A DNA stretch of 55,630 nt, the filler included, from Jimgerdemannia flammicorona (taxonomy: Eukaryota): NCBI GenBank assembly GCA_003990765.1. It is 2 parts of 2 records of this genome, joined end to end, with 100 filler letters (N's around TTAATTAATTAA, not from the genome) between each part and the next. Parts side by side here need not be neighbours in the genome. Positions count along the whole stretch, not along the records: positions 1 to 27,768 come from RBNJ01000604.1; 1 more part is not named here. The stretch is one strand, 5' to 3'. Positions 1 to 47,841 of the stretch are shown here, in pieces. Within the stretch, counting starts at the first letter, position 1; the number at the start of each line of letters is the position of its first letter. A model generated the notes under the pieces. That model was not told the origin of the DNA, did no database searches, and worked only from the letters and a program-made list of their open reading frames with translations. Both the position numbers and the translations under genes were made by a program.

Positions 1-306
1 GAGAAATATTAAAAGAATAATTATAATAAGTTTTAAATATATATCTCAATTTATTGTCTATCTATTAAATAAAGAATATTTATAAATAATTTGGTTCCAA
101 AACTGAACCAATAAATTTTTTTTTTTAGATTTTTTTTTAAAGATAAAATAAAGATTTAAAAACAATAAATTTAATATTTTTAAATATCTCTAATATAAAA
201 CTATAATATATTATAATATAAAATATATTTATTTAGAGTATTTTTATTTAAATAATTAAAATATAAAATTTAATAAAACATTGGTTCAGTTTTGGAACAT
301 ACTGTA
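1..306. mobile_element. Decayed AT-rich end of a putative Tc1/mariner-type DNA transposon or MITE
   Basis: A 19-bp inverted repeat pairs GTTCCAAAACTGAACCAAT (94-112) with ATTGGTTCAGTTTTGGAAC (280-298). The outer copy ends ...ATACTG|TA (304/305-306), i.e. a CAGT-type terminus with a TA flank. The left end is probably outside the window. Confidence 0.4.
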
Positions 307-1189
307 GAGAGTCAGCTAACCTTAGGTGTCAAGTGCTCAGTGTAGGTTACCTGCAGGTCCTCAGTACCTATGGTGGGGCTCTCTGGCTTTGGCGAGCTTC
401 CCGGCGAGCACAGTTCTGGTGTAGGTGACTGCTTTTCAGGTGTTGTCGGGATGGGAGAGGAGATGGCCATCACAGATAAGAGGAAGGGCAATAATGGTGA
501 ACCAGTAGGGTACTAGGCTGGGGGCAGTCATTAGGACTGGGGCAGGTGCTGCTTCGGTGGGGTCTTTTGATTGGTGTGGTGCAGTTAGGTAGTAGGTGTC
601 ACTCTTGGCTTCTTTTGGCGATTTGGCAGGTTGGGCCCCAGTCATCAGGGGGGGTCAGGGGGCCTGAGGCTACCCATTTCAAGCATCTTGGCTATACTCA
701 ACTAGAACTAGGAGCTGATACAGCAATGTGATTGAGGCTCGCAGGCTTGAGTAGTGGGGTATTGGGGGTCTCCTCCTACCTCAAGTCCTTTACTCACCTT
801 AACTGGGAGAACCAGATCCTACCCACCATGTTGTGCTTTGATGAGGGTTTTTTCTTTGCCTTCATTCTCTTTGGGGTGGTAGAGGCTATTCTATTCAGCT
901 CAGGTATGGCCTTGTACATATGTTGGGTTCTTGGGCATGTGCTTTCAGTCATTGGCATATGGCAGGGTTTCCCCTGATAGTAGGGAGAGCATGGTATACA
1001 GAATGAGGTGCAGGCCAATATAGGCCCTACTGTGCCTAGCATGGTCAAGCTGCTGGACAATAGCTAGTCTAGGTTAATGAGAGAGCAGTGCTTGGTGGGT
1101 GGTGGGGGAGAGTTTTGGCCTATATAGTCTATGTTCTCTTCTAATAAAAATCCATGGAACATTGAGTCTGTTAAAAAAAAAAAAAAATG

Positions 1190-1630
1190 CCAGCATCGGC
1201 ATTTGATGTAACACTGAATAATGCCAGTACTGGTATTCTGATATAACACCAAATTATACCAGCATCCTGAATCTGTACAACCATCAGTACCGACCCTGGA
1301 ACTTAGCAGTTTTTTCTGACCTGGTATTTTATTTTAGTTATTGGAATTTATATTTAGCTTTATATCTTAGCAACCATTGAATTATATTTTGTATAAATAC
1401 CCCTCTTATTTCCTCTGAAATAAAGTTAGTCAACTCAGTGCAATATACATACTTCCTTGCAAGCAATCTAAGAGATAACAAGACAGTTAAAGATAAGAAG
1501 TTTGAGGACTATAAGACCTTGGGAAGGCACTCCAATAAGAACTTGCTTATAACAAACTTGAGTTAGTCTAAGAGATACACCTTAAAGAGAATCTGGCATA
1601 TTTGAAGGACTCAGTGACCACTATGTCACA
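1190..1630 (+). mobile_element. Partial LTR related to the Ty3/gypsy LTR at 47143-47841
   Basis: 1321-1612 aligns co-linearly with about 47543-47832 (GTTATTGGAATTTATATTTAGCTTTATA, GTATAAATA, AAGCAATCTAAGAGATAA, AAGAAGTTTGAGGACTATAAGA, TTTGAAGGACTC). It ends in ...TCACA at 1630. Confidence 0.8.
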
Positions 1631-2860: not shown

Positions 2861-4039
2861 AGGACACTTCAGGCGATGCGGACATAAAGGATGAGTAGGC
2901 TAAAACCACTGTTGGATTTCATGTCCATGTTTAGCGTTTGGTCGTTTGATTACGGCTTTGTTTGGGTTGGTATATACCAGTGACCTGCGACTTGGTTGAC
3001 TTCACTCAGGTGTCGGTGCCACTAGTCTCAAATTCTTCGACGAGCTGATAAGGCGGGGCTTGTAGTATCCAAATGGGCTGAATTGTATTGTGGCTGTCGA
3101 CTTTTTCGGGGGGTTTTTTAATTCTCATCCTTTTGATTTTTCTTTGCGGGTATTGAAGTCGAGCCACGATCGGGGCGACTGTATATACGAATCCCGCTGA
3201 CTTTTTTTTTTTTTTTCTTTCCTACATAGTAATTAACTAGACGAACGCCAGGATTTAGTTTACTGATTGAGTAGATATCGAAAGAACAAGCCTACGACAA
3301 ACCAAAGCCAGTTCCATCATTATAACTAACACAACAGTTTCCGAAGGATGAAATAAGAATACCCCTACTTCGCAACCAGCAGCAGGCACGGAATTCCCGA
3401 GTCACATGCACGTCTTCAGCCTCAAAGTCAAACACCAAGACCGAGTCCTTCGAGTCCCCCGCTACTCAGTCTTGGAATAGCCATTGCTCGCACCGTCATT
3501 TGACAACCACTCTCAAGCGCACCGTAAGCAAGATCATTGAGCAGGCCAATATCTGTTCCGAGGAAGCGAGGATACGTATGTCCTGAACTATAACGATGCG
3601 TCCTCTCTCATGTTTCCCTCCCAGTCCTCGCCATTCAACGTTGTGCCTGCAAATGGCGAGCCGGAGCATATTGGGATGCTCAAGAAGGGTCGCTAACGGT
3701 GTAAGTGGAGTCGTTATTTATTTATTATTATTTTTATTATTTTGGGGCAGTAGGAGGCGGGCTATCGGATTGGAACAAAAAGGAAAAAAGAAAGTAGAGG
3801 TGGATGGAGCCGGCTCGGCTTCTCGCATACCTCACAAACCCACATTAACACCCTCACCATCTACATGACCGTAGGCCTACGAAAAATCTGACCGGATCCG
3901 TCTCGACCAAAGCCGTCCTCCGAATTGCATTTGTCATCAGCAAACATCTGCGGTCGGCTCTGACACGAACGGACGGGTGGCGAGGCTCGGCGCGCATGGT
4001 GAAGATAGGTAGGAGGAGACGCAATCGTGTGTGTGGACG

Positions 4040-4366
4040 GGAGAGAGTTATTGGCGGGGAGGAAGTTATAGGCAGGGAGATGCTGGCGGGGAGGGAGTTG
4101 TGGGCAGCGAGGGAGTTGTAGGCGGCGAGGGAGTTGTGGCGGCGAGGGAGTTGTGGGCGGCGAGGGAGTTGTAGGCGGCGAGGGAGTTGTGGCGGTGAGG
4201 GAGGTGTAGGCGGCGAGGGAGTTGTAGGCGGCGAAGGAGTTATGGGCAGCGAGGGAGTTGTGGGCGACGAGGGAGTTGTGGGCGGTGGGCGGCGAGGGAG
4301 TTGTGGGCGGTGAGGGAGTTGTGGGCGGCGAGGGAGTTGTGGGGGGTGAAGGAGTTGTGGGCGGGG
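4040..4366. repeat. 18-bp G-rich tandem repeat (unit approx. GGCGGCGAGGGAGTTGTG), about 18 degenerate copies
   Basis: Directly visible; it generates the PPTTPS/GGEGVV periodic ORFs in the ORF track. Confidence 0.95.
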
Positions 4367-4391
4367 ACAGAAATGTCACACATTCACGTCC

Positions 4392-7300
4392 TTACCGTTG
4401 CCACAAGCAACAAGATTCAAGGACGCAACATTTTTTGTAAGCAACATTGAATTCACAGATGGGTATAGTGCAACGTATATACGTCTGCTTGATTTTGGCC
4501 TTTATCCAATCCTTCTGGGTTTTTGATAACCTTGTTCCTTTTATCAGTTCGACTTGTTTTGACACCTTCTTCATAACTTCCTTCATGGCGAACATGCTTG
4601 CGCTTTCTTCGTTTTCGCCATTGCTCATGAAGAGTGTTTTGTTCTTCTGCCAGATTTTGCCGAGTTCTAAGTAGCACTTGATCGCGCTGACGCTTGTTTC
4701 GTCCGCCCTTTTCTCCAAGTTCAGGGCTTTTATGACTAGGTATGCCTCTTGCTCTGCAAATTCCGCGTCCGCCAGATCTCTCGTTGTGATTTCCACCCAT
4801 CCGGCCGCGTGCCATACCCTTATGTTCTCGAAGCAGCTCAGGACTCTTGTCGCGCTTGTCCCAAGTTTTTCCTTGCTCATCAGTAGCTCTTGAACTGTTG
4901 GCATTTCTTCTGGTACGGTTATTTCTGGGGCTCGTACCGTTTCCTCCTCCTGTAGTGGTTCTGGCTGTAGCTCTTGTTCCACTTGTCTGTCGATTTCTGC
5001 TTCGCTTATAATACTGATTTCCTCTGGTGTTTCCGTTGCGCTTTCATCGGCCTCGCTTTCTGCTGCGATTTGGATCGGGCTTCGCAGGTTTCTTGAGATT
5101 CTCCTGGCTCGTTCTCTTCTGGCTCCTACTGCCCTTCGAATTGCTCGTAGTTCCGTTACTTGGTTTTGCAGATTTTGCGCCAGTTCTGCATCTTCTTGTG
5201 CTTCTTGTTCCAGGCGGTTGTAGCTGTTTTGGATCATTACTGCATCCCATTCCAATGCTTTGATCCGGTCTTCCATGTAGGCTAGCGTCGCCTCCTTTGG
5301 TATCTCCATTATTGGCTCGTAGCAGTAGAGACATATTCCTCCAATTGTCTCTTCAATCGGTAGCCTGATGCCGTTGACTTCGGGTTCTTCCCCGATCTTG
5401 CGTCTTTTGTGGTTGGCGTACACCATGCCCAGGCACTTTGTGTGAATGCTCTTGTCACAGTGTGGGCAGAAGAAGAGTGCTTCTTCCGGCTGCTTCTCCT
5501 CTAGGCAGGCTACGCAATTTTCAGCGGTTGCTTGGCTTCTGCTGCGCTTGGCGGTTACTACCATTTCAACAGATCCTTCTTGCTCGTTGCGGAAGTATAG
5601 GGACTTGTCCCCTCGGATTACCATGATCTCCTTGGGTCGTAGGTTTTCCATTACTGCTTTGGCTCCATATACCAGTTGCTTGGGCAAGGTGTCCGGGAGC
5701 CTGGTTTCTTCTTGCAGTAGTGGTACTCCTTCGTTGACTACTACTCGTGGCTGTTGTAGGGTCTTCCGTACTGCGCTTGTTGCTTTGTGTTCCATCGTGT
5801 GACTGCGTGTGGAGAAGTCGTGGTGTATGTTGATGTTTCCGAAGCGAGCTGTCAGCATATTTATATTTGTCGTGGTTGTCCACGTGTTGGTCTGCTGATC
5901 TTTCTTCCACATCTGTCCTTGTATTTCATCGATTTCTTTAAGCAGGTCCGTGACACTGCCGATCGATTCTTCTTTTGGGAGTTCTCCGACTTCTTTTTCG
6001 ATGTCTTCGATTTCCTGCATTGCAATTTCGTACGTTGTCTTCTTTGTTTTTGCGCCTTCTCTGGCTGCCTTGAAGAACGTATTCCACCATACTTCGGTCT
6101 CTACTTGGTCTACTGCTCCTGTCCAAGGTTTCTCTTGCTGGTGGTTTTCTTTATCGCTATCCGATTCTTCGGTATGTACTTGTCCGTTGAATCTTCTTTG
6201 CACTCCTTCTCTTCCATACGCGTTTTCCGTCATGAAGCTTTCTGGTTTGTCCGGCGTCCAGGTTGGATCTTCCTCCTGTTGGGGGTACCAAGCTGGTTCA
6301 TTGCTGGACTGGTTTGGGATCGTTGTTTCCCATTTGTACACGTCTGCCTGCCAGTCTTGCAGCTTGTTCTTGCCGTTTCTCTTTGGTTCCCAGACTGGTC
6401 TTTGCTCTTGCCAGCTGTTGACGGTTTCTTCTTTCCTTGCTTCCCAGGCTGCCCATTCCTTGGGTTCTCCTTGGTAGCTTGGCTTGCTTCCGTATGGTCT
6501 CCGTTGTTTTGGCCTTTCCGCTAAATCATATCCTCTCTCGCGAATCCGGATTTGCTGTTTGTGTTCGCTTCCTATCTGCAGGAATTCTTTGGCGACTCCT
6601 TGCTCCTTGCTGAGCTGGTCCCGGTATTGTTCGAACTTTGAATCCTTCCTTCCCCAGTGGGTGTTGAAGTGGTGGGCTTCTTTCGGATTCGGTCCTGGAA
6701 GGCTCTTGATTAGTTCTTCTGAGCGGATTCTTCTCCACTCTTTGTGAGCTTCTAGGGCTTCATGTTCCTCCCATCGTTCCTGGATTCTTCTTTTTGCTTC
6801 CATGACTTCTTCCGGCATTGGCGGGTCATAGGCTTGGTCCTCCGGGTCCGAGTCGTAGTTGTTTTCTGGCCAGAGTAGTTCTTGTTCTTGGTTATCTATT
6901 TGTATGGCTTCGATACTGATTTCTTGCTCCAGCTCATTGTCCTTTATATCCTTTGGGAAAGGGTCGGGTCTCCCCCCCAGGGCAATAGCTCCAGCGCGTG
7001 ACAGGTAATCTGAAAAGCCGTTCTCAGAACCCTTGATCCATTTGAAAGATACATTAAGGCCTTGTAAGAAGAATATCATTCTTCTTTCAGCTCCGGTAGG
7101 GGGCTCCGTAGATGCCTTGCTTAGGTATGTATCCGGGTTTGTCACCTTTGTCAGTGCTTGGTTGTCAGTATAGATGATAACCTCCTGGTTTGTCATCCAT
7201 GGGTTGGTCACCAGGGCGTAGTAGACGGCGTATAGCTCCGCCTTTTGCTGATTGAACAACTCCGGCTGTTCCTTTGCCTTTTTGAACTGGACTAATTTCG

Positions 7301-8543
7301 GAAGGTTTCGGCTTCCCAGGCCCAGCAATCTTGGTGGTACTGTTGCTTGGTAGATTATCCAGCCGACTCCGTATGGTGATGCGTCCGTGTTTACCCTGAT
7401 TGGTTCCTTTGGGGCTTGCAGTTCCAATGTGGCATGGTTCACCAGTGCTTGTTTGATTCGTTCGAAAGCGACTGATTGCTCGTTTTTCCAAAGCTCTTCC
7501 AGCTTTCCTTTTTTGTTTACGACGTTGTTCTTGCATTCCATGAGGGGCGCTATGGTCTTCGTATAGTTCGGGATATAGTGAGCGAAGTATCCGAACTTTC
7601 CGATGATGGCCTGCAAGTCTTCCACTTTTGCTGGTTTCGGGAGTCCTAGGAGTGATTTAACCCTTCCTGGGTCGATATGAATCCCCTTCGTTGTTACTCT
7701 TGATCCCAGCAGCGAGACTTCTTGTTGTCTTAGGGCCATCTTCTTAGGCGCTAACTTGATGCAATGCCTTCGGCATACCTTGAGGAATTCTTCCAACGAG
7801 TGATCATGCTGTTGAACTGTTTTTCCTCCTCCTGCCGTATCGTCGATGTATGGTGGTGCAATAAACTTCTTTTGCACCAGTGGTTCAAACGCGTATTTCA
7901 TGAAGCCTTGCCATGCTCTTGGTGCGTTGTGGATTCCAAACAGCATCCTCGAGGGTCGAAGGTATCTTCCATTGAATGTTCTTACTACCAGGAGGTTTGC
8001 ATGGTGTTTTTCTACTGCAATATGGTGGTAGGCCTTTGTTACATCTGCCTGCCAAATGAATCCTCCTTGGGTTATTTCCAACAGTGTCTTTTGGACTTCC
8101 TGGCTTGTTGGCATTTCAAATGGTATTAGCTCCGTGCTCTGATTGTACCCTCGGTAGTCAATCACCCATCGTGGTTTGGCTTCCTTCTCCTGCGTTTCTC
8201 CGGTTGTTAGCTCGTCGTGCCCACTGAATACCAGGAATTCTTGCGCGGCCGCGAATGGTTGTTGCACTTCTTCGAACCATCCGGCCTTGATCATTTCATC
8301 GTGCTCCTTGATTCTTGCTTCATAATGTTCCTGGTGCTGAGGATTTCTTTGCGGAAGCCTTCCTGGGCAATGGTACGGCTTTCCTCCAATCTTCAGTCTT
8401 GCTATGTACGGTGGTGATGTGGTGATGATTTGAATGTCATTGATAGTGTTGGCGAAGACATCCTTGTATTTGCATAGTAGTCTTTCTAGTTGTTTGTCCG
8501 GTGGTTTTCTTGCGAACTTGGTCAGGAACTCCGTGTCGGTCAT
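4392..8543 (-). CDS. pol: Pol-like polyprotein: reverse transcriptase, RNase H, long acidic/coiled region, C4HC3 PHD/RINGv finger; last 29 codons are read-through into flanking DNA
   Basis: RT motifs: RWVIDYRGYN, ADVTKAYHHI, MLFGIHNAP, YIDD (7839-7850), LLG. RNase H motifs: VNTDASPYGVG, KAELYAV, YTDNQAL, SDYLSR. Finger: CVAC..CPHC..HTKC..CLYC (5322-5516). No DDE integrase core was recognised. Confidence 0.92.
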   Translation of the reverse strand: MTDTEFLTKFARKPPDKQLERLLCKYKDVFANTINDIQIITTSPPYIARLKIGGKPYHCPGRLPQRNPQHQEHYEARIKEHDEMIKAGWFEEVQQPFAAAQEFLVFSGHDELTTGETQEKEAKPRWVIDYRGYNQSTELIPFEMPTSQEVQKTLLEITQGGFIWQADVTKAYHHIAVEKHHANLLVVRTFNGRYLRPSRMLFGIHNAPRAWQGFMKYAFEPLVQKKFIAPPYIDDTAGGGKTVQQHDHSLEEFLKVCRRHCIKLAPKKMALRQQEVSLLGSRVTTKGIHIDPGRVKSLLGLPKPAKVEDLQAIIGKFGYFAHYIPNYTKTIAPLMECKNNVVNKKGKLEELWKNEQSVAFERIKQALVNHATLELQAPKEPIRVNTDASPYGVGWIIYQATVPPRLLGLGSRNLPKLVQFKKAKEQPELFNQQKAELYAVYYALVTNPWMTNQEVIIYTDNQALTKVTNPDTYLSKASTEPPTGAERRMIFFLQGLNVSFKWIKGSENGFSDYLSRAGAIALGGRPDPFPKDIKDNELEQEISIEAIQIDNQEQELLWPENNYDSDPEDQAYDPPMPEEVMEAKRRIQERWEEHEALEAHKEWRRIRSEELIKSLPGPNPKEAHHFNTHWGRKDSKFEQYRDQLSKEQGVAKEFLQIGSEHKQQIRIRERGYDLAERPKQRRPYGSKPSYQGEPKEWAAWEARKEETVNSWQEQRPVWEPKRNGKNKLQDWQADVYKWETTIPNQSSNEPAWYPQQEEDPTWTPDKPESFMTENAYGREGVQRRFNGQVHTEESDSDKENHQQEKPWTGAVDQVETEVWWNTFFKAAREGAKTKKTTYEIAMQEIEDIEKEVGELPKEESIGSVTDLLKEIDEIQGQMWKKDQQTNTWTTTTNINMLTARFGNINIHHDFSTRSHTMEHKATSAVRKTLQQPRVVVNEGVPLLQEETRLPDTLPKQLVYGAKAVMENLRPKEIMVIRGDKSLYFRNEQEGSVEMVVTAKRSRSQATAENCVACLEEKQPEEALFFCPHCDKSIHTKCLGMVYANHKRRKIGEEPEVNGIRLPIEETIGGICLYCYEPIMEIPKEATLAYMEDRIKALEWDAVMIQNSYNRLEQEAQEDAELAQNLQNQVTELRAIRRAVGARRERARRISRNLRSPIQIAAESEADESATETPEEISIISEAEIDRQVEQELQPEPLQEEETVRAPEITVPEEMPTVQELLMSKEKLGTSATRVLSCFENIRVWHAAGWVEITTRDLADAEFAEQEAYLVIKALNLEKRADETSVSAIKCYLELGKIWQKNKTLFMSNGENEESASMFAMKEVMKKVSKQVELIKGTRLSKTQKDWIKAKIKQTYIRCTIPICEFNVAYKKCCVLESCCLWQR

Positions 8544-8563
8544 TTGTTCGCACGATGACCGAC

Positions 8564-11500
8564 TTATTGAAAACTCGGCTTAAAGGTGAGGTGCCTTTGC
8601 AGGCCGGGTTCTCGTTCTGGTATTTCTTCCCAGTTTCGTCGGTATTGTTCCTTATCCTTTTCGACTACTGTCTCCTTAGTCGGGTATTCTGTTCGCAGCG
8701 TCCCTTCTCTTTCTTGAGCGACGTATTCTCCGGTTTCTTCAACTTCTACCTTGGACTTGCTTTGCCGATGCCATGGTCTGGCTTCTGGTGCTCGGAACTT
8801 GATTCCGGTTCGTCCATTCGTAGGAGAGATGATTTCTAGGTGATTCTCCACGAAATCTATTCCTCCGACTACTATCATCGTCATCTTATTGCTTCGATCT
8901 ATTTCGCCATTGTTTAGTCGAAGCTTCCATCCTTCAATTCCTTTCAAGGCCACTTTCTTCCAGCTTGCTCCTGCTAGCGCCGAACCCACTGTAGTTCTGC
9001 TGGCTGCTAGGTTGATTGTTATCAGGCAATTCTGCCCTGTCCCATCGGCCTTGCGGATTCTTCCGTCCCAGTATAACCCATCCTTGTCCGGGTTACTGTG
9101 CGCTAGGGCCACTTGGTTCCATGGGTTCCCTTGTCTTAGCGCTTGGTTTCTGGGCGTCGCCGGCAGCGGTGGTGCGGCTTGCTGGTAGCTGGCTGGTAGT
9201 TGTGTTTGCCTTGTCTGAGTCTTCCTGCGGGTGGTCACCGGCTGAAGACTCGAGTCCTCTTCCAACGGTTGGACATTTACTGGGATGTTCCAACATCCTT
9301 TGTCCTCATCGCGTTCCCAATATTCACCTATTGGTGTGAGCGATAGTTGGTTCCCTAAGTCCTGGCTTATGTTCTCCGCCTTGGGCTTGGGAGAGGTCCT
9401 GGTCGTTTTCCTGTTCGTGTTCTTCCCTTGGTATTCTTGAATATTTGCGCGGCTTTCTGCGAAGCTAGCCGGGATTTCTACTCCTTTTCGTAGGATCTTC
9501 TTCTCGCTGTATAGGATGTCCCATCCATTTTCTTGTAGGAACTTATTTCCGAGTAGGAAGGATGCGCTTCCTGCTCCTTTTAGGACAGTTAGGTTTATCT
9601 GGTAGTTTTGTTCTCCTACCTTAAACTTGACCTGGTGTATTCTTCCGAGTACCCCAATGGGGGTTCCTCCAGCTCCTAGGAACCTACGATATTCCGGCTG
9701 TAGTTGATCTCGAAGTTGCAGCCTTTCGAGGATTTCTTCGCTGATTACGTTTTCGTCCGCTGCTGTATCGACCTTGGCCTTGAACGTTTCTTGATTGCGC
9801 TTTAGGGTCACCCATATTTGTCCTATAGGGCCTGTTGCGGTGCGCTTTCCCAGTAGCTCGACTTCTGGGGCTTGTTCGATTACTTCGATTTCTTGGTCAG
9901 ACTGATATTCCCAGTCTTCCTCACTTGATGGTTCGTCGTGCAGTTCTTGAATTTCTTCGCCAAGTCGTTCTTCCTCTCCTTCGCTGTCTACTTCGATTTC
10001 ATATGTCTTTCTTCCGACGCGCTTAGTTCTTCCAGTCTTGAAGAACCTTCTTTTCTTCCTGAATTCCACCTTTCTTGTTCCTTTTCGGTGGAATGGCTTA
10101 TCTTCTTGAGGGTCATCGATGTCCATTGGTCTTCGACCTCCTCGATCCCTTCTGAATGCTTCGACGGGCATTTCTTGCTGTATTTCCTCGGCCGCTGGTC
10201 CACTTCTTGGATATCTGGTTCTTGACCAATATCCTTTGTTGTAGTTGGTCTTGATAGTCCCTTCTTGTACGGCTGCCACGAATTTTCCTTTGAATATGTT
10301 AAGACAGACGTCCAGTACTTGTTGCGCCGTGGTTGCTGGTGTTGCTGTTAACATTTGGTTCTGCCTGTAGTGGTACGGCAGCCATTCGGGCATCTTTCCT
10401 AGGATGAATTTCTCTTGTGTTGTGAAGGTGTCATCCGTTAGGCTGGCTATCCTCATTCTAAGCTCCAACTGCGTATTGAAGTGCTGCATGTCGTGGATAC
10501 TTTGCGCATTTGACCTTGGGAAGTTGTACAACTCTTCCCTGATGATGGTCACTTGCTCCGCTCCGAAGAATTTTTCATGGATTAATAGTCTTAATCCTTT
10601 TCGTTCTCCTTGCTGGTCCGTGTAGCTCATCCAGCTCAGCGGTTTGCTGTGGTCCGTCATTGGTTTGCTAAGGACATCGTTTATCAACCATTCCTGTGCA
10701 AGCTCCTGGAATCTTGATCCGACTGCGGCTACCAGTCTGTAGCTGTAGGATTTGACGGGTTCGTTCGGGTTCTTCGGGTCTGCCCAGTAGTTTACTAGAT
10801 ACCCTGCTGCTACATAGGCCAAGTCTACTTGTCCTATGAATGCGGGTACTTCCATCGGGTTACCGGTGAATGGTTTGATGTTATCAAAAATCTTGATACT
10901 CCCTGGGAGTGTAAGATTTACTGGTCCTTCGGCTTCCACTGGTTCTTCTGGTGGTGGTGGATTATGCGGTGGATGTTCTGGATTTGTGTCGTGGTCATCT
11001 TGATTCTCGTAGTATTGGAGAATTGCTGCTCCAAAGATTTTTAAATCTTCATCGGAGAGGTTTCCCCAGCTACTCTTGACGACGTATTTCCTCATTGCTG
11101 ACTGAAGAAATATCACGAATTTTGGTGCATCGTGTTTGTAATCGTTGTACAGTCTGTCTGGCCAAGACACCGAGATCGGTGTTGGTCTTGACTGCCTTGG
11201 TCGGTTGATTCCATATGTTACGTCGTATAGACTCCATCCGTATTCCATTGCCCATTGACTTCCGATTAGTCCTCCTGTCTTCCAATCGTTTGGTAATCCT
11301 GGGACTCCTCCGATTCCTTGCTGTCCTTGGTATGCCATCATTGTGCGAAGGATTAGGTCTAGGAACCTAAGGTAGATGTCATCTCTTGGGTAATTTGTTC
11401 CTCCGTTCGGATCTTCTGTTGAATCCGAAAGTACCCAGCAATCTCCTGCTAGGTGAAATGCCTCTGCCTCGGTGGGCATGTCTGGAAGTTCCCAAGCCCA

Positions 11501-12919
11501 TCCGGCTTGTCTTCTTGGTGTCGGCATTTTCGGAATGTTTCTTCCGTTATTGTTTGGCAGCCTTGGTGGTTCTCCTCCGGCGCCTGCCATTCTTCTCCTA
11601 TCGCTGGCCTGAGCTGGTCTTGTCAATCTTGCTAGGGCTCGGTCCAGCTCGCTTTGCGTATCCTTTGTGCCTTCCACATTCCTTAGTAGCTCGAAGTTTT
11701 TGTTTTCTCTTCGTGCTCTTTCTCTGCTTGCAGCTATTTGTTGTGCTGCGTTTTCATCCAATCTTTGTCGGACTCTTCCTGCCGGGAGCGCGTTTCGGCT
11801 TGCTTCTGGTGTTACTTGCAGGAATGGGTTTGGCTGTTCTCGCACCGTTCGGATAACTGTAGGCTGTCCCATGATTTGGGCCCATGGTTGCTGTCTTTGA
11901 TCGTTTATCCGTTGTATCGTTTGTGCGATTACTCCAGGATTTGCGCTTCTCCTTTGTCCGACTCTTGCTGTTGCCGCTATCAATTCATCTGTTGTTGTGA
12001 TCTTCGTAGGTTTGGCTGTTGATCCTGAACCTTGGGGTCCCTTCGGCTGTTCGAGGTCGAAATATTCCTTTGGGATCGATTCTGCTCCAAACCATTCTCC
12101 ATTTTTCTTCTTGATGAATGCTGTCATCCTTTTCGTATTATTGATTTTGTCTTCCGGCCACTCGAATTTCTTCAGTATGTAGTCGAAGAAATTGTTCTGT
12201 ACTGAGGTTACTGAGATCCCTCCGTACTGTGATATTTCCAATGCGATGTTTAGGTCCGTATCTCGGAAATGTCCTCCTAGGTGGTTGGCCACAAATATCA
12301 TGAAGTCGTGTCTGACCGGCTTCCTTTTGAGTACTTGTCTGCACTTCAGATATCCTTCTTCCAGGAAATTTGCGATTTGTGCTGACAGTTCCTTGTATTT
12401 TTCTCCGTTTCCGTAGTTCTTTTTCCAGAAGGAGTACCAACGAGATCTTCCTTCTTGTGTACGAGTTTCCATGGTTCGTTCACTTGTTGCCAGTTCTCCG
12501 TCTGATTCATGGGTCGGGACTGGTTCTCCATGGATGGTTTCGTTCATTTCTTCAAGTCTTGCGCGGATCAGCGCTGGGTCTTCCAGTTTTGGTTCTTCTG
12601 GAATTTCGATTGGTCCTGAAGGCCAGAAGTCTTCGGCTTCTTCTTCTTCTAGGACTTCGATTCTTGGTCTGGCTGAAGTTCGGGTAGTCATCGAGGGTGA
12701 CCTCCTTGAGTCGCTTGATCGCTGAGAGTGTTCACGGGCACTCCTCCGACTGCGGCGGCTTCGTACTTCTTCTTCCAGCTCTTGTATGCGTGCTTGTTGT
12801 TGGCGAACGATTTGTTCCATTCGCTGGTCTGTGTTCGGTGCCAGCTGTGTGCTTGCCGATACCGTGTTGTTACTCTCATCATTGAGAATGCGGTAGATGA
12901 CTCTTCCGTGTTGGGACAT
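8564..12919 (-). CDS. gag: Gag-protease polyprotein (1451 aa)
   Basis: N-terminal coiled coil; retrotransposon capsid-like segment IKPFTGNPMEVPAFI; basic patch RKKRRFFKTGRTKR; retropepsin AKVDTAADENVIS...FLLGNKFL (catalytic Asp codon at 9769-9767). No CCHC knuckle is visible. Confidence 0.85.
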   Translation of the reverse strand: MSQHGRVIYRILNDESNNTVSASTQLAPNTDQRMEQIVRQQQARIQELEEEVRSRRSRRSAREHSQRSSDSRRSPSMTTRTSARPRIEVLEEEEAEDFWPSGPIEIPEEPKLEDPALIRARLEEMNETIHGEPVPTHESDGELATSERTMETRTQEGRSRWYSFWKKNYGNGEKYKELSAQIANFLEEGYLKCRQVLKRKPVRHDFMIFVANHLGGHFRDTDLNIALEISQYGGISVTSVQNNFFDYILKKFEWPEDKINNTKRMTAFIKKKNGEWFGAESIPKEYFDLEQPKGPQGSGSTAKPTKITTTDELIAATARVGQRRSANPGVIAQTIQRINDQRQQPWAQIMGQPTVIRTVREQPNPFLQVTPEASRNALPAGRVRQRLDENAAQQIAASRERARRENKNFELLRNVEGTKDTQSELDRALARLTRPAQASDRRRMAGAGGEPPRLPNNNGRNIPKMPTPRRQAGWAWELPDMPTEAEAFHLAGDCWVLSDSTEDPNGGTNYPRDDIYLRFLDLILRTMMAYQGQQGIGGVPGLPNDWKTGGLIGSQWAMEYGWSLYDVTYGINRPRQSRPTPISVSWPDRLYNDYKHDAPKFVIFLQSAMRKYVVKSSWGNLSDEDLKIFGAAILQYYENQDDHDTNPEHPPHNPPPPEEPVEAEGPVNLTLPGSIKIFDNIKPFTGNPMEVPAFIGQVDLAYVAAGYLVNYWADPKNPNEPVKSYSYRLVAAVGSRFQELAQEWLINDVLSKPMTDHSKPLSWMSYTDQQGERKGLRLLIHEKFFGAEQVTIIREELYNFPRSNAQSIHDMQHFNTQLELRMRIASLTDDTFTTQEKFILGKMPEWLPYHYRQNQMLTATPATTAQQVLDVCLNIFKGKFVAAVQEGTIKTNYNKGYWSRTRYPRSGPAAEEIQQEMPVEAFRRDRGGRRPMDIDDPQEDKPFHRKGTRKVEFRKKRRFFKTGRTKRVGRKTYEIEVDSEGEEERLGEEIQELHDEPSSEEDWEYQSDQEIEVIEQAPEVELLGKRTATGPIGQIWVTLKRNQETFKAKVDTAADENVISEEILERLQLRDQLQPEYRRFLGAGGTPIGVLGRIHQVKFKVGEQNYQINLTVLKGAGSASFLLGNKFLQENGWDILYSEKKILRKGVEIPASFAESRANIQEYQGKNTNRKTTRTSPKPKAENISQDLGNQLSLTPIGEYWERDEDKGCWNIPVNVQPLEEDSSLQPVTTRRKTQTRQTQLPASYQQAAPPLPATPRNQALRQGNPWNQVALAHSNPDKDGLYWDGRIRKADGTGQNCLITINLAASRTTVGSALAGASWKKVALKGIEGWKLRLNNGEIDRSNKMTMIVVGGIDFVENHLEIISPTNGRTGIKFRAPEARPWHRQSKSKVEVEETGEYVAQEREGTLRTEYPTKETVVEKDKEQYRRNWEEIPEREPGLQRHLTFKPSFQ

Positions 12920-12963
12920 GTCGTTGGCTTCGTTTGATGAAGTTGTGAGTTCTTGAGTGTTGT

Positions 12964-13261
12964 TGTTAACCGTTAAACCTTTGATCCTCCGGACCGATTC
13001 AATTCAGTATCTCGCGGCTAGGCCAGGGGTAAGTCTTATGCGTCCACTGAAAATTGACTCTTGAAGTCTCGAGGCTAAGCTTTAAGTACACCGTAAAATA
13101 GGGCTTCGGAGAAGGTTCCCGTATTTTTTCAGTGTAAGCGTAAAAGCTATTGTGGGGTTTATTGGGTTTGTAAAAGGGTGAGGAATTCGAGTTCCAATAC
13201 ACCTGGTATTTATACATTTGTTAGACCTCTTGGTCCTTACTATTTGCAAGCGGTGTTAACA
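12964..13261 (-). promoter_or_regulatory. Single LTR-like promoter/polyadenylation region of the retroelement
   Basis: Minus strand reads: purine-rich tract (about 13312-13265), TGTTAACA (13261-13254), TATAAAT (13214-13208), AATAAA (13163-13158), GTTAACA (12970-12964), then the gag ATG at 12919. Only one copy is present. Confidence 0.55.
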
Positions 13262-13329
13262 AATTTCGCCTATTCCTCCTCTGCTTGTGACTTTCTTTTC
13301 ATCCTAATCCCCAGCGAAAAGCGAGTCAC

Positions 13330-13590
13330 TTATACCGATTCCCCACTTCCCCAGACGCTCGATCCCCAATCATTTGGGTCATCTGAGGGTACCTGTAGGA
13401 CTTGTTGCTGCTCTTCTTCTGACGGCATTCCGCCTGTTCCGTTGATCATGAGATTCCAATATAGCTCTTGCTGACTAATTAGCTTCCTCAGCGTTTCGAT
13501 CTCATGCGCTGCAACCCTTGTTATCATACTTGCCGATAAGCCTTTCACCTGGCTTATGAAGTCTTCGCCCATTCCTTCTAGCAGTCGGTA
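13330..13590 (-). CDS. Displaced C-terminal 86 codons of the Pol polyprotein (YRLLEGMGEDFISQV...GSGESV*)
   Basis: The open frame begins at the right junction repeat and has the same composition as the element. It continues ...KAKIKQT in frame if the circle junction is GTACGT. Confidence 0.7.
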   Translation of the reverse strand, partial: YRLLEGMGEDFISQVKGLSASMITRVAAHEIETLRKLISQQELYWNLMINGTGGMPSEEEQQQVLQVPSDDPNDWGSSVWGSGESV

Positions 13591-15048
13591 TATACGTATC
13601 GGGTGGTCGCAGGGTGGGAAAGTACGGCCATAGCCGTGCTGCTGCAGAAAGGTGCGAGGTAAAAAATTCTCACATTTGGGAGTTTGTGAAGGCGGTTAGG
13701 TAACTTAGTAAATACAATGGATGAAAGCGGGAAAATCAAAACACTATATATATATATTTTTTTAACATAAATATTTTTAATAAATCAATGCGATACTTTG
13801 TTTCTATCATTCACGGCCAGCACCCGCGCATGGACATGCATCGGCACTCGTATATAGAACACCTTATTCATGTTTGGCCTTCGAGCTACAGCATTAAGTT
13901 CAACACAGGAAAACCCGGTGCGAAGGATGGGTTCAAAAGAGACGGGCAGAGTTCGGGTTGGGAAGTGCGGCGATTGTCCTATATTCGTGTACACTGTTAT
14001 AGGTATATATATATTCTTTTCACAATTGCTGATTTATTTCCACGACGTTTACATCTCAACGGTCAAGCAAAATTTCCATTCATGGACGTTTTTAACGTTC
14101 AACACTGTGTTATTGGGAATATCGCAAATGCGCGCAGAACTCTGTTGTTTAGATGGCTTCCATCTACATTTCTGACTAGTCGTTGTACTTTAGGCTGTGA
14201 AGCCGTTAACAAAAGAATCGCTTTGTCAAAGTGTGGGCGATATCGTAGGAAACGGTTTCTTGGGATCTTTGACATGGTTTGTGCTTTGCAAGATACATAC
14301 GCTCAAGTGAGAATGACACATTTCAAGCGGAACTTGTTCCGTCTGGGTTTCGAACGAAAGATTGGACAATCCGCGGCCAAAACTCGTGAAATGGAAGTCC
14401 TGAAATTACTTGTCATTCCAAAGCTTTAAAAATATATGGTCTGATTCAAAACGGCAATTAGTGCCCACACTTAGCTTTTTGAGTGTGCCGTAAATTTAAC
14501 GACATAATTAAAATGTACTGGTAAGGGTCGTTAACGAAAATAATTATGTGTCATCCAACTTGACTTTCCTTGTGAATCAGATAATTTATTTTTGTTCACA
14601 GAAACTTGCTTAGTTAGATATATATACATTTAAGCTTAATCTTTTTTGAAAATAGCTCTAATACACAATGAACCATTAAGAGGCAAATTGCAGCGAGTGA
14701 AATTTTGTAACGAGCCTCTATAGCTATAATGCTGGTTGAGTGGAAATTACATTTCTGATCTTAGCGTGGCGCGAATTCCCCACATGGCTTAAGACCATGA
14801 TAGCCTATGCCTCAAATAGTATATACTATTCAGGGTTATTCATATAACTCTATCTTATATGGGGCGTGCTGCAACAAAACCAGACAAAGTGAACTTCTGA
14901 CGTTACTCGGGTGCTAGGCTTAAAGATTTTTCTTTCGCTCACCCCTTCCCGCAACCTTTCAATTATTCAATACCCATCATACATGATAATCACAACAAGC
15001 AAGCTGAAATATAACCCAAAATTCTTTCTTTATTATTATCTCTTGCTG

Positions 15049-32783: not shown

Positions 32784-35700
32784 GTCACTTGGACTCTGCC
32801 ATTTATTATCAGTCTATTAATAAGTTTACAGTAACTCCTCCCACTATCCGATCCCCTAGAGGAGCCTTTTCTCATATTATCATGAATAAAGACCACCTTC
32901 TCACTCACTACTCCCACCCTTCTCCCACTCTGCCTACAGATCTTCTCTACTAAGTGATACCTTCAACCACCCTGCAGCCCCCAACCAAGCCACCAGCCTG
33001 TCAAGGTGTCTTCCATAAGGCTATACCAATATACCAACCAGTCCCCCAAGCTCAGTCTCCTCCTATCTTCAAAAACAAATAGCCAGTGACTGACCAGCCC
33101 CACCCAAATTGCCAAAACCCAGCCTAAGGTAAGCCACTCCTTTCCCACCCCCCCTACCAGTCTATCTCTCAAATCCTCCCATCAACCTCATGTACCAACT
33201 CCCCTACACACTACCCCCAAATGATCCCCAATAGTCTGCCAAAAGTCACTAAGCACCTCATACTCTCCTAGCCAATATTCAGACTTCTGTACATATTATT
33301 CTTCCTGCCCTATATTGTAGTACTCACAGTTGAAGCAACCCACCTCGATAAGGTGATCCAAGCAGAAGTTGAGCATTACATTCCTCCTCAGCATATGCCA
33401 CCAGACCACCCAGTACTTTGGTGGCATCCATCTCCTCACCTTGGCACTCCAGGCCCACATGCTATACCAGTTCCACTCTTCTCCAATACCCACTCCCTGC
33501 TATCCACTATGCCACAGATCCTGGCCTTATTCTCTTTAGCAATCTATCCCATCACTAATATTGAACTCAATTAAGGGAATATCTCCCAGCAACACTCAGT
33601 CCCATCTCTACATCACTGGGTCCCAAGTCATCTCTCCTTCATTACTCTGCCAACAAATTCCAATATGGTGCACCCCCTCTGCTACTCCCCACCAGAAGCC
33701 TTTGTATTGCAATTGTGCAGTATTCTGAAGCCCAACCAATGATTGGAGATCTCCTGTCAAGCCTCTTGGTAAGGACCTCTTCTCTCAGACCTTCTGCAAT
33801 AGGGGGACCCAACCACCTCCTCTCAACTCCACTGCTCTCTTTAACCACCATGCTCTCAAGCAGTATAGTCTCTTCAGAAAGTCAACCAGCCCAAGCCCTC
33901 CTCTTGTCACTGGTAAGGATAAGACCTCTCAACTGATCTGACTCCTTCTTCTAGCCCAGATCTACCCCTTAGCCAGCTTCATCAATCACTTCACTACCCA
34001 GGCTAAGAAGTCCAGATGATAAGCCAGATATCACAACTTCGGCAGCCAATAGATGTTCAAAATCAAGACATACCCTGCTAGAGATAAGTGGCGACCCCCT
34101 CAGCTCTGCAGGGCCTCCCCCCAGATTCTAACCCTCTGCTCCCACCAAAGTCTAGATAGTACTGACCCATATACTGACAAATAAATACCCAAGTACTGTA
34201 CTACCTTGTCAGTAGGGATGATTGTTCTGATAACATCTCCTCCTACCAGGCTATTGCCCAATACCATTGTTTCATACTTAAGCCAATTGAGTTTAGCCCC
34301 AGAGTTCTCCTCATACCACTCCACCATCTTCTTGAGCTCCTCAACATCAGCAATAGACTCCAGGCTGACCACCATATCATCTGCAAAGACCCCAACTTTC
34401 CACCCAATTCCAAAGACAGAGAGCCCTACTATCTTCTGTCTAATTCTGTCCATTAGGGGCTCCAGAAAGAGCATATAGAATGGGAGACAGTGGGTCCCCC
34501 TGGGGTATACCCCTACCCAGGGGAAATGATACCCCTCTATGTTCATTACATATGAGCACAGCCTTACTCTCTTCCAGTAGGCTGATCATTGCTGACCAGA
34601 ACTGGTGTAGTACCCCAGTCCTATCTAATACTTTTGCCAGCCAGACTCACCACACTCAGTCATAAGCCTTCTTCTGGTCTAAAAAGACCAGTTGCCCATC
34701 CAGTCCACAAGCTTGTGCCCCTTCAATAACTCTATGTACCCAGGTTGTGCTATCCCTAATGAGTCAACCTCCTATAAAGCCCCTCTGCTCAACACTCAAG
34801 ACTTGCTGGGCCACCTTCTGTAGCTTCATAACTACTACCTTAGTCACCAACTTTCTGTCTATGTCCAGCAGCATAATTGGCTACCAGTTCTTCCAGTTCT
34901 CTTGCCTTCCTTTGTTCTTGTAAAGCAATATCACCAGCCCTAGATTCTGCTCTCCCACCCATCTCTCTATCTGTAATATGTATAAAGTTACACAATGCTG
35001 TCATCTCACTCAGTACTTCTGGGACTCCCACCATCTTCTTCCAGAAGTCCCAGGGCAGACCATCCTCCCCAGGTGCCATATCTGGGGTTGTCATAGCAAG
35101 AATCTGGTGGATCTCTTCCTCTTGTACTGGCAACACCAAGTCACCCAGCTCATCTATTTGTGGAGGGGACCAATCCTCCAATACCCAGTCAATGGTAGCA
35201 GCATCTGTCCCACCCTTCTTCTCACTCCACAATCCACTCTATCACTCCTTTAATGAACCAAGAATATCTTGTATACTATGCACCAGTATATCATCAGAGT
35301 CAAGCACTCCTTCCCACCTTTGCTGTACCCTTCTCACCTGAAGAGCCCTCATGAGATACTTAGAGGGCCTCTTCCCTTTCTCCAAACCCTACCAATGAAG
35401 CTGTGCTGCTAAGCTCTGCACCCTTGTCTCCTCCTCATCCTGCAGCACCTGTTGTAATTCTCCAACCTCCATTTTTACCCTCATTAATCTCCAATCCTCT
35501 CCCCCCTCTACCATTGCTAGCTCTGTCCAATCCTTCAAGAGTCTAGTCAGTCTAACAGAAGCCCATCTCACCCATCACCTCCTCTGCTTCCCAGCTTCTC
35601 TGCCAGTAGACCCTGGTCATCTCTTTCATCCTCATCTACCAAATACCAACTGGGGTACCTTCCTGTCTCCAGCTCTCTACTCTCAGTTGAATGTCCTCAG

Positions 35701-47142: not shown

Positions 47143-47841
47143 TGTTATAGATTGGAGAGCTCCTGCTGCTGCTAAATATGATGATATCATTAGTAATGAT
47201 GTTATTCTGTATAACATATGTGAGATACACAAAGTACGTGAAATGGATGAAACATTTACAGACCTCATCTCCTTTGAAGATATCTTGTCCCTGACCTTTG
47301 GCCTTAATGATAGTGACAAAGATGATTCTGAACTTTCTGCTTTAAGTTCTTAGCAACACTAGATTCTACCAGTATTCTTTTCCTGTGTAACTATTATTCT
47401 TCTGGTATTCTGATCTTATATAACTCAGAATTCTTCTAGTATCCTTTTCCTGTATCACTGAAATTCTACTAGCATTCTGAACTTATACAACTATTTATAC
47501 AGATACTTGAACTTATACTTATAACTATAGTTTTCTGTATTCCAGTATTTTATTTGGTTATTGGAATTTATATTTAGCTTTATAACTTTGTAACTATTGA
47601 ATTATATTTTGTATAAATATCCCTCTTATTTCCTTTGAAATAAAGTCAGTTTCAATTCACTTACTCTCAATTCTATGTAAGCAATCTAAGAGATAATAAG
47701 ACAGTTTAAAGATAAGAAGTTTGAGGACTATAAGATCTTAGAAAGGCACTTCAATAAGAACTTATTTATAACAAACTTGTGGTTAGTCTAAGAGATATAT
47801 CTTGGAGAGAGTCTGATGTATTTGAAGGACTCTATATAACA
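47143..47841 (+). mobile_element. 3' LTR (about 700 bp) of the gypsy element
   Basis: Inverted termini TGTTATA...TATAACA, preceded by the purine tract AGAAGAGAA. Contains TATAAAT and AATAAA; its 3' half matches 1321-1612. Confidence 0.8.

What the first reader, a model, noticed from the sequence alone, without database searches (positions are those of the whole stretch)
4482..6990. Integrase position of Pol replaced by a PHD/RINGv finger and a long unknown region
After RNase H there are about 830 aa with no DDE core. EELIKSLPGPNPKEAHHFNTHWGRK (about 6650-6720) resembles the HH half of a gypsy integrase HHCC finger, but no CxxC follows. Next come Trp/Glu/Gln-rich segments, a clear C4HC3 finger (5322-5516), a coiled coil and a helical C-terminal domain. 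Inference: integrase was lost and replaced by a chromatin-reading or E3-ligase-like module that could tether an episome or counter silencing.
Basis: partly seen in the sequence, partly recalled or inferred. Interest (0 to 1): 0.7.

Follow-up and report, generated by a model that had tools for sequence, protein, structure and literature searches.

The report
Integrase-less circular retroelement in a fungus
This is a 9.1-kb retrovirus-like element with no enzyme for inserting itself into chromosomes; its copies in this fungal genome are cut open at different points of a circle, which suggests it multiplies as a free DNA ring, as plant pararetroviruses do, and gets trapped in chromosomes only by accident.

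Summary
Observation largely confirmed. After RT-RNase H the Pol frame has no integrase by any sequence test, and it carries a conserved PHD-type finger. The finger is not RINGv, and the 'HH' is not a recognisable integrase relic. The larger finding lies outside the given coordinates. The element (about 4476-13597, minus strand) has no LTR pair, and its copies in this genome are circularly permuted. The window copy is cut inside the Pol tail, whose last 85 residues sit at its other end. A second full copy (9138 bp) is cut inside the PHD. Empty sites show no integrase-type duplication. One intergenic leader holds a TATA box, AATAAA about 50 nt downstream and two conserved stem-loops. Copies show strong purifying selection, near-saturated silent sites and no CpG decay. 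Best reading (0.75): an integrase-less reverse-transcribing element that replicates as a circle and is captured by DNA repair, like plant caulimovirids. It is not a caulimovirid: no movement or coat protein match, and the RT is an orphan long branch outside them. No primer site, free circle, RNA or structure could be shown. No relative outside Jimgerdemannia-labelled records and no description in print were found.

The parts
4476..13597 (-). Whole captured copy: one full turn of a circle of about 9.11 kb, opened inside the ORF2 tail; no LTR pair
   Evidence: Same 9-bp word at 4476 and 13589; no long terminal repeats; permuted matches in C3743, C986, C782
8564..13003 (-). ORF1, 1479 codons (first ATG 12919): Gag by position only, plus protease and a further domain
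   Evidence: no match to Gag, caulimovirid coat or movement-protein profiles
10244..10936 (-). Most conserved pre-protease block of ORF1 (residues 690-920); capsid domain inferred from position, not shown
   Evidence: 84-91% identical among copies, dN/dS 0.05 or less; no family match
9533..9805 (-). Retropepsin-type aspartic protease, DTAA at 9769
   Evidence: Pfam PF13975 E 8e-10; own profile 53 bits
8714..9136 (-). Conserved domain of unknown function at the end of ORF1; possibly an inactive second protease fold
   Evidence: Atlas features 0.94 to protease clusters, sharing 149 of 256 features, fewer than the 170 typical of true family members; not confirmed by HMM or hhalign; dN/dS 0.09
8511..8579 (-). 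ORF1/ORF2 overlap in the -1 frame with a conserved stem downstream; likely -1 frameshift site (first ORF2 ATG at 8543)
   Evidence: 3 of 3 variable sites between the ORF1 stop and the ATG are silent in the ORF2 frame; invariant 7-bp stem without covariation
7698..8180 (-). Reverse transcriptase, YIDD at 7850; orphan long branch
   Evidence: PF00078 E 2e-12; best identity to non-family proteins 33%; stem 1.3-1.6 changes per site
6999..7412 (-). RNase H with intact D-E-D-D motifs
   Evidence: PF17917 and PF17919
6030..6932 (-). Trp/Glu/Gln-rich spacer, predicted disordered, at the place where gypsy elements have integrase; holds the HH-x-TH word at 6657-6674
   Evidence: dN/dS 0.11-0.28; no integrase score
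5550..6002 (-). Conserved domain of unknown function (residues 860-1010)
   Evidence: 85-87% identical in C3743 and C986, dN/dS 0.06; no solved relative
5322..5516 (-). Atypical PHD-type C4HC3 finger with a 33-residue insert; no aromatic cage residue and no Trp before the last Cys pair (motifs recalled)
5100..5321 (-). Coiled-coil-like, Arg-rich segment
   Evidence: Sequence pattern; 64-84% identical among copies
4482..4904 (-). First part of the helical C-terminal domain of ORF2, cut by the capture point
   Evidence: Uncut in C986 and C782; dN/dS 0.08-0.37; no solved relative
13330..13587 (-). Last 85 codons and stop of ORF2, at the opposite end of the captured copy
   Evidence: Match the ends of the open frames of C986 and C782
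12986..13329 (-). Single intergenic leader: TATA box 13207-13214, AATAAA 13158-13163, stem-loop 1 (about 13078-13148), stem-loop 2 (about 12986-13074)
4466..4484 (.). Left junction: short filler plus the 9-bp word
   Evidence: Comparison with empty sites C24958 and C27271
13589..14860 (.). Right junction and host repeat; continues the host repeat at about 4031-4465
   Evidence: The two flanks are contiguous in 2 of 2 empty-site contigs, 91-93% identical

Best explanation
A family of integrase-less, LTR-less reverse-transcribing elements with a circular DNA genome of about 9.1 kb that works like a pararetrovirus. Inferred cycle: (1) the circle is transcribed from the single leader. The polyadenylation signal lies about 50 nt past the TATA box, so it would be passed on the first round and used on the second, giving a slightly more-than-full-length RNA with a short terminal repeat. 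(2) ORF1 (Gag-like, protease, unknown domain) is translated, and a -1 frameshift adds RT, RNase H and the tail. (3) RT copies the RNA in a particle, primed in or near leader stem-loop 2 by a primer not identified, and regenerates the circle. (4) Chromosomal copies are dead-end captures at breaks, opened at arbitrary points and joined by end-joining repair with 2-5 bp microhomology or filler. The tail (unknown domain, PHD, coil, helical domain) most likely acts in the nucleus to keep the circle expressed or inherited; the PHD probably reads an unmethylated histone H3 tail (about 0.45). SHOWN: anatomy, no detectable integrase, permutation, empty sites, selection, leader conservation. INFERRED: free circles, transcript ends, frameshift, capsid, priming, tail function.
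For: Permutation. C3743, C986, C782 and C1548 each run ORF2 end > one leader > ORF1 start without a break, as does the window at 13587>13330>13003. Their ends fall at different places: window ORF2 aa 1367; C986 ORF2 aa about 1017-1030; C3743 ORF1 aa 921 and 1116; C782 ORF2 aa 947 and ORF1 aa 1372; C1548 starts at ORF2 aa about 1224. Two full turns agree in length, 9113 and 9138 bp; C986 has a 42-bp terminal overlap inside the PHD. Empty sites: window 2 of 2; C986 11 of the 11 host-repeat loci fetched, of 39 listed, with flanks overlapping by about 2 bp and no 4-6-bp duplication. A leader search gave 6 hits, none a full solo LTR. No integrase. All blocks show dN/dS of 0.02-0.39 where dS could be estimated, with dS from 0.4-0.5 to saturation between copies of one genome: each copy is a different long-replicating lineage, not a burst. 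CpG observed/expected is 0.82-0.98 in six copies or pieces, against 0.07 in an adjacent chromosomal gypsy integrase and 0.0 in the old C2336 piece. Leader: 7 of 42 predicted pairs show two-sided changes among 4 copies, and 0 of 500 shuffles reach that; the basal stem also forms in C1548. Caulimovirids are circular, lack integrase and are thought to be captured by end joining or microhomology (PMC10377300, section 3.1; PMC11363490, passages).
Against: No free circle, RNA or particle was seen. No primer-binding site: best 13 of 18 against 29 distinct tRNA sequences from 31 loci, an incomplete set, and a targeted tRNA pattern found 0. No clear polypurine tract at the leader. Nothing in ORF1 matches a known capsid, and it has no CCHC knuckle. 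Without folds, a novel nuclease or recombinase in the unknown domains is not excluded. The leader structure was derived from the same 4 related sequences, and the window leader alone folds at z -1.7, C1548 at z -0.3. Only two full turns exist; other copies are partial, broken or rearranged, and the assembly is fragmented (35354 contigs). One end of the C3743 copy abuts a gypsy integrase on the opposite strand; it is CpG-decayed and absent from both full turns, so I read it as host DNA. Active transposons can also keep their CpG.
Confidence: 0.75

Rival explanations
1. A chromosomal Ty3/gypsy derivative without integrase that spreads as head-to-tail arrays by recombination into earlier copies, like integrase-independent Tf1; the permuted copies are pieces of such concatemers.
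For: Tf1 without integrase inserts by Rad52 single-strand annealing and mostly forms tandems (PMC11042837, abstract). The RT falls among Ty3/gypsy rows. Short-read assemblies can collapse arrays, and contig C20889 ends inside the element on both sides.
Against: No copy is longer than one turn plus 42 bp (C3743 has an internal exact 204-bp repeat). Both full copies sit alone in unrelated host repeats with clean empty sites. The closest two copies are 93% identical. No CpG decay.
Confidence: 0.1
2. The tail or ORF1 hides a new kind of integrating enzyme (divergent DDE, tyrosine recombinase or nuclease) that inserts the circle with little specificity.
For: Three conserved domains have no assignment: ORF2 860-1010, the helical domain, and ORF1 1290-1430. 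The C986 insertion is nearly clean. Folds could not be computed.
Against: Known integrases and recombinases cut their own element at fixed ends; here every break differs and most destroy a gene. No profile signal. Fungal DIRS/Ngaro elements have a recombinase, terminal repeats and no protease (PMC3783388, passages).
Confidence: 0.07
3. One-LTR circles of an LTR element that borrows integrase in trans, for example from the gypsy group with a separate integrase gene noted earlier in this genome.
For: The leader has the U3-R-U5 order of a single LTR. Earlier notes describe separate integrase genes in this genome (unchecked). One copy abuts a gypsy integrase.
Against: Integrase in trans would leave LTR-bounded copies, duplications and solo LTRs; none among 6 leader hits or 11 loci. 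No integrase ORF inside either full turn (for the window; for C986).
Confidence: 0.05
4. A plant caulimovirid from the host plant, present as contamination or transferred into the fungus.
For: Same genome size class and strategy; a sister relation of the RT to caulimovirids is not rejected (p-AU 0.31).
Against: Flanks are repeats with at least 39 other copies in this genome. No movement-protein or coat match with profiles of 54 and 55 caulimovirid sequences. The RT is outside the caulimovirid clade (100/99); mean identity 23% to caulimovirids against 28% to Ty3/gypsy rows.
Confidence: 0.03

Closest known systems
Caulimoviridae and endogenous caulimovirids (plant pararetroviruses)
   Same: Circular 7.1-9.8-kb genome, protease-RT-RNase H without integrase or LTRs, one long intergenic region, accidental capture in chromosomes (PMC10377300: passages and sections 2.6, 3.1). 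An accessory protein after RNase H recalls CaMV P6 (recalled).
   Different: Fungal host; no movement protein, caulimovirid coat domain or zinc knuckle; no tRNA primer site found; two ORFs joined by a likely frameshift; PHD-bearing Pol tail; RT outside the family.
Metaviridae (Ty3/gypsy LTR retrotransposons)
   Same: Gag-PR-RT-RH order; nearest RTs at up to 33% identity; best solved match is Ty3 RT, 65 bits against 59 for CaMV; probable -1 frameshift.
   Different: No integrase, LTR pair, TG...CA ends or target-site duplication; protease ends ORF1 and is followed by an extra domain; copies are permuted.
DIRS/Ngaro tyrosine-recombinase retrotransposons of fungi
   Same: No DDE integrase; occur in Mucoromycota.
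   Different: They carry a recombinase and inverted or split repeats and lack protease (PMC3783388, passages); here a protease is present and neither recombinase nor repeats were found.
Hepadnaviridae, nackednaviruses and HEART elements
   Same: Reverse-transcribing without integrase (hepadnaviruses: PMC10377300, passages); a structured leader could serve priming, like epsilon (recalled). HEART mobilization is described as unresolved (PMC12440569, parts 1-3 of 5).
   Different: Those are animal lineages with a different RT; the 3-kb genome and lack of protease of hepadnaviruses are recalled. No HEART sequence was available to compare.
Troyka and Kuafuorterviruses (recent new LTR lineages)
   Same: Orphan RT branches near Metaviridae and Caulimoviridae.
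   Different: Both have LTRs and are essentially confined to animals; Troyka has integrase and 3-bp duplications (PMC12440569, parts 1-3; PMC11673190, part 1 of 3).

Membership tests
Caulimoviridae | Protease, RT and RNase H without integrase | tested here: met
Caulimoviridae | Circular genome of 7.1-9.8 kb, no proviral stage | tested here: inconclusive
   Permuted units of 9113 and 9138 bp imply a circle; no free DNA seen
Caulimoviridae | 30K-type movement protein | tested here: not met
   No PF01107; 54-sequence profile gives -4 to -5 bits, below shuffles; fold not tested
Caulimoviridae | Caulimovirid coat domain with CCHC knuckle | tested here: not met
   No PF22909 or PF00098 (both found in true caulimovirids); 55-sequence profile negative
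Caulimoviridae | RT inside the family clade | tested here: not met
   10 caulimovirids form a 100/99 clade without it; a sister position is not rejected, p-AU 0.31
Caulimoviridae | Initiator tRNA-Met primer site (recalled) | tested here: not met
   The host initiator tRNA matches the leaders at 9-10 of 18; by eye 7 of 8 bases after a displaced TGG
Metaviridae (Ty3/gypsy) | DDE integrase after RNase H | tested here: not met
   controls
Metaviridae (Ty3/gypsy) | Two LTRs and a 4-6-bp target-site duplication | tested here: not met
Metaviridae (Ty3/gypsy) | RT within Metaviridae | tested here: inconclusive
   Joins one gypsy row at 94/90 with a long-branch warning, in an unresolved base; the gypsy rows were chosen by likeness to the query
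Metaviridae (Ty3/gypsy) | Retroviral-fold capsid in Gag | tested here: inconclusive
   No sequence match; the Gag profile held only one sequence; folding unavailable
DIRS/Ngaro | Tyrosine recombinase ORF | tested here: not met
   No Pfam hit in the long ORFs or 29 alternative ORFs
DIRS/Ngaro | Inverted or split terminal repeats; no protease | tested here: not met
   No such repeats; protease present
PHD finger | C4HC3 ligands with C-x2-C-x4-H spacing (recalled) | tested here: met
PHD finger | Binding to the histone H3 tail | not testable with these tools
RINGv / RING-H2 E3 ligase | C-x-C-x7-H (RINGv) or C-x-H-x2-H (RING-H2) spacing (recalled) | tested here: not met
   Spacing differs; the His of CPHC is Ala in C782

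The most novel reading that the evidence does not exclude
This is a fossil record of a separate family of fungal pararetrovirus-like viruses: a Ty3/gypsy-related lineage that gave up integrase independently of plant caulimovirids, lives as a nuclear minichromosome, uses a chromatin-reading Pol tail in place of integration, and may prime reverse transcription without a standard tRNA site. Alternatively it is a surviving sister of the caulimovirid ancestor from before the movement protein was gained.
Probability: 0.5. Interest if true: 0.9.

Novelty: new variant of a known kind. Interest (0 to 1): 0.8.

Why it matters
A 2024 mycovirus review states that no pararetrovirus has been reported from fungi (PMC11371549, passage). 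A 2023 review treats caulimovirids as the only Ortervirales without integrase and leaves their origin open, allowing for an unknown Metaviridae-related lineage (PMC10377300, section 2.6). An integrase-less circular relative in an early-diverging, plant-associated fungus would be either a second origin of that lifestyle or a witness to the first. It would also show a chromatin-reader tail standing where integrase normally is. Such elements would be misfiled as broken gypsy copies and missed by LTR finders.

Tried and rejected
Relatives: the tail search found 2 proteins among 6462 candidates, both labelled Jimgerdemannia flammicorona; one ends with the same residues as the C986 frame and is not counted as independent. 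The ORF1 search found only itself among 8000 scored; the C986 tail found 0 among 5280. Viral contigs and metagenome contigs gave none; these scans reach only close relatives. No sequencing run was listed. Atlas on the helical domain gave only leads at 0.90-0.93: a closterovirus coat cluster and unnamed Mucoromycota clusters. PHROGs and NCBIfam gave nothing of note. A second-protease reading of ORF1 1280-1435 rests on the atlas alone. No primer site. The HH word as an integrase relic and RING as E3 were rejected (see observation check). P0003 lacks the first six finger ligands; this may be a gene-model gap, and its DNA could not be seen. Trees: the quick tree gave p-AU 0.67 and the careful tree 0.31 for family plus caulimovirids; 22 of 67 rows were dropped for run time; no Bel/Pao, Copia, DIRS, Troyka or HEART rows were available. 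Literature: 10 searches listed no description; subscription journals and Repbase are not covered, and no supplements were read. Four look-ups of earlier findings by sequence or words showed nothing.
Full report
WHAT IS THERE. The minus strand holds two long frames: ORF1, 8564-13003 (1479 codons), and ORF2, 4392-8579 (1395 codons). ORF1 has a retropepsin at residues 1067-1157. ORF2 has RT, RNase H with intact catalytic motifs, and a sub-threshold PHD match. No LTR pair or terminal inverted repeat surrounds them. The window joins contig C604 (1-27768) to other sequence across an N spacer. The only named relatives carry the label Jimgerdemannia flammicorona, so the host is inferred to be that fungus or a close relative.

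INTEGRASE. Pfam finds none in either long ORF or in 29 alternative-frame ORFs. A profile of 144 gypsy integrases scores nothing above 2 bits in six frames. The tail scores -1.1 bits, matched by 75 of 300 shuffles, and profile-profile comparison is also blank. The same profile finds the ordinary gypsy integrase at window 44857-45540 (E 5e-53) and others on the fetched contigs. The 300 residues after RNase H, including the HH word, are predicted disordered, and no Cys follows for 380 residues. A fold-level test could not be run, so a novel enzyme is not excluded.

THE FINGER AND THE TAIL. The finger has PHD spacing and resembles PHD fingers of PHF10, DPF3 and KAT6A/B most (E 0.002-0.04; RING-H2 fingers at 0.005 and 0.03). 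Those second fingers read the unmethylated H3 tail (recalled). It lacks the aromatic cage of H3K4me3 readers and has an acidic residue two before the first Cys in 3 of 4 copies (motifs recalled). All eight ligands are kept in the window, C986, C3743 and C782, across frameshifts in the last two; the old C2336 piece has decayed. Every tail block is under purifying selection: residues 860-1010 at 0.06, the finger at 0.04, the helical domain at 0.08 against C3743 and C986, and 0.18-0.39 against C782 (dS is near saturation, so ratios are rough).

THE COPIES ARE PERMUTED. Eleven loci were found in G000: C604, C986, C3743, C782, C20889, C1548, C2336, C15988, C3458, C18833 and C10681; these counts are lower bounds. 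In C3743 and C986, sequence matching window 4480 is joined directly to sequence matching about 13570-13590. The open frames of C986 and C782 run through that point and end with the residues found at window 13333-13587. The window copy is thus one turn of a circle, opened inside the helical domain; the last 28 residues of the printed ORF2 are filler and host DNA. C986 is another full turn of 9138 bp, opened inside the PHD with a 42-bp overlap; the window unit is 9113 bp. C3743 ends at ORF1 residues 921 and 1116, C782 at ORF2 947 and ORF1 1372, and C1548 begins at about ORF2 1224. All five long copies with a leader have exactly one, between the end of ORF2 and the start of ORF1.

JUNCTIONS. The window copy interrupts a host repeat whose empty form is seen in 2 of 2 contigs at 91-93% identity. 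Both junctions carry the same 9-bp word, five bases of which are in the empty site, and the left junction has a short filler. The C986 flanks are contiguous, overlapping by about 2 bp, in 11 of the 11 host-repeat loci fetched (39 listed). Neither site shows a 4-6-bp duplication. Against a tidy picture, one end of C3743 abuts a gypsy integrase on the opposite strand. Its CpG ratio is 0.07 against 0.82 in the element and it falls in the middle of the protease on the circular map, so I read it as host DNA.

LEADER. About 340 bp hold TATAAATA, then AATAAA 50-51 nt later in 4 copies (64 nt in C1548), then two stem-loops. Seven of 42 predicted pairs change on both sides among 4 copies, and 0 of 500 shuffles reach that; the structure came from these same sequences, so this is suggestive only. 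The basal stem also forms in C1548. A polyadenylation signal just past the promoter is what a circular template needs to give a terminally redundant RNA (established for caulimovirids and LTRs; recalled). No primer site was found among 29 tRNA sequences, an incomplete set. The ORFs overlap by 16 bp in the -1 frame. All 3 variable sites between the ORF1 stop and the first ORF2 ATG are silent in the ORF2 frame, and an invariant stem follows, which favours frameshifting over reinitiation.

POPULATION PATTERN. Silent divergence between copies runs from about 0.5 to saturation, while RT-RNase H stays 94-97% identical. The low dS of RT-RNase H between the window and C3743 (0.51, against 0.9 or more in most other blocks) suggests recombination. 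Six copies or pieces keep CpG ratios of 0.82-0.98; a neighbouring chromosomal integrase has 0.07 and the old C2336 piece 0.0. The simplest reading is repeated, independent capture of lineages that evolved outside the chromosomes.

RELATIONSHIP. Among 1.84 billion representatives, nothing lies between the family itself (94%) and generic gypsy RTs (33% or less). Of 30 top single-RT hits scanned, 28 carry an integrase domain and the other 2 show none. With 10 caulimovirids, 28 gypsy-like rows and 5 retroviruses, the family has a stem of 1.3 changes per site and lies outside the caulimovirid clade (100/99). It joins one gypsy row at 94/90 with a long-branch warning, and a sister relation to caulimovirids is not rejected (p-AU 0.31). 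Movement-protein and coat profiles from 54 and 55 caulimovirid sequences give no signal. No relative was found in viral or metagenome contigs.

COMPARISON WITH PRINT. Caulimovirids invariably have a movement protein, coat, protease, RT and RNase H, lack integrase, and are thought to be captured by end joining (PMC10377300: passages and sections 2.6, 3.1). Fungal DIRS/Ngaro have a recombinase and no protease (PMC3783388, passages). Troyka has LTRs and integrase (PMC12440569, parts 1-3 of 5). Kuafuorterviruses have LTRs and are animal (PMC11673190, part 1 of 3). A 2024 review reports no fungal pararetrovirus (PMC11371549, passage). Ten searches listed no description; Repbase and subscription journals were not searchable, and the element could be filed there as a gypsy.

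VERDICT. It works like a pararetrovirus (0.75) but is not a member of Caulimoviridae, Metaviridae or DIRS by the features tested. Interest 0.8.

Noticed in passing
window about 43390-45540 (+), second contig: An ordinary decayed Ty3/gypsy element with RT, RNase H and integrase; served as positive control.
   Followed up: partly
window 34103-34585 (-); inverted pairs 33927-34147/54274-54494 and 37896-38052/50303-50459: RT fragment (PF00078) and two oppositely oriented copies of a related, strongly GC-skewed repeat, probably non-LTR elements.
   Followed up: no
window 1328-1612 and 47548-47832: Two copies (84-92%) of an LTR-like repeat on different contigs; a similar end abuts the TATA box of the distant relative in C18833.
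   Followed up: no
window 4074-4364: 18-bp G-rich tandem array, about 16 copies, part of the host repeat and present in the empty-site contigs.
   Followed up: partly
window 4464-4479 and C3743 from 13617: The filler at the window's left junction resembles the first bases of the inverted-repeat element that abuts the C3743 copy, flanked by TA; a DNA-transposon footprint may have supplied the break. Unexplained.
   Followed up: no
L096 (C18833) 175-2300: A far more divergent member: leader with TATA, AATAAA and both stems, then ORF1-like frames with two collinear weak matches (E 0.001, 0.003).
   Followed up: partly
L085 (C1548) 4081-5721: The ORF1 start of a divergent copy runs in frame into a Sel1-repeat sequence, giving a 547-codon chimeric open frame.
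   Followed up: no
window 8714-9136: ORF1 ends in a conserved domain that may be a second protease fold without the catalytic Asp (not confirmed).
   Followed up: partly
C3743 7667-8072; C782 about 9037-9924 (L015 3037-3924): An exact 204-bp tandem duplication in C3743 (real or assembly artefact), and an 890-bp insertion in C782 that matches window 305-1187 at 84%.
   Followed up: no
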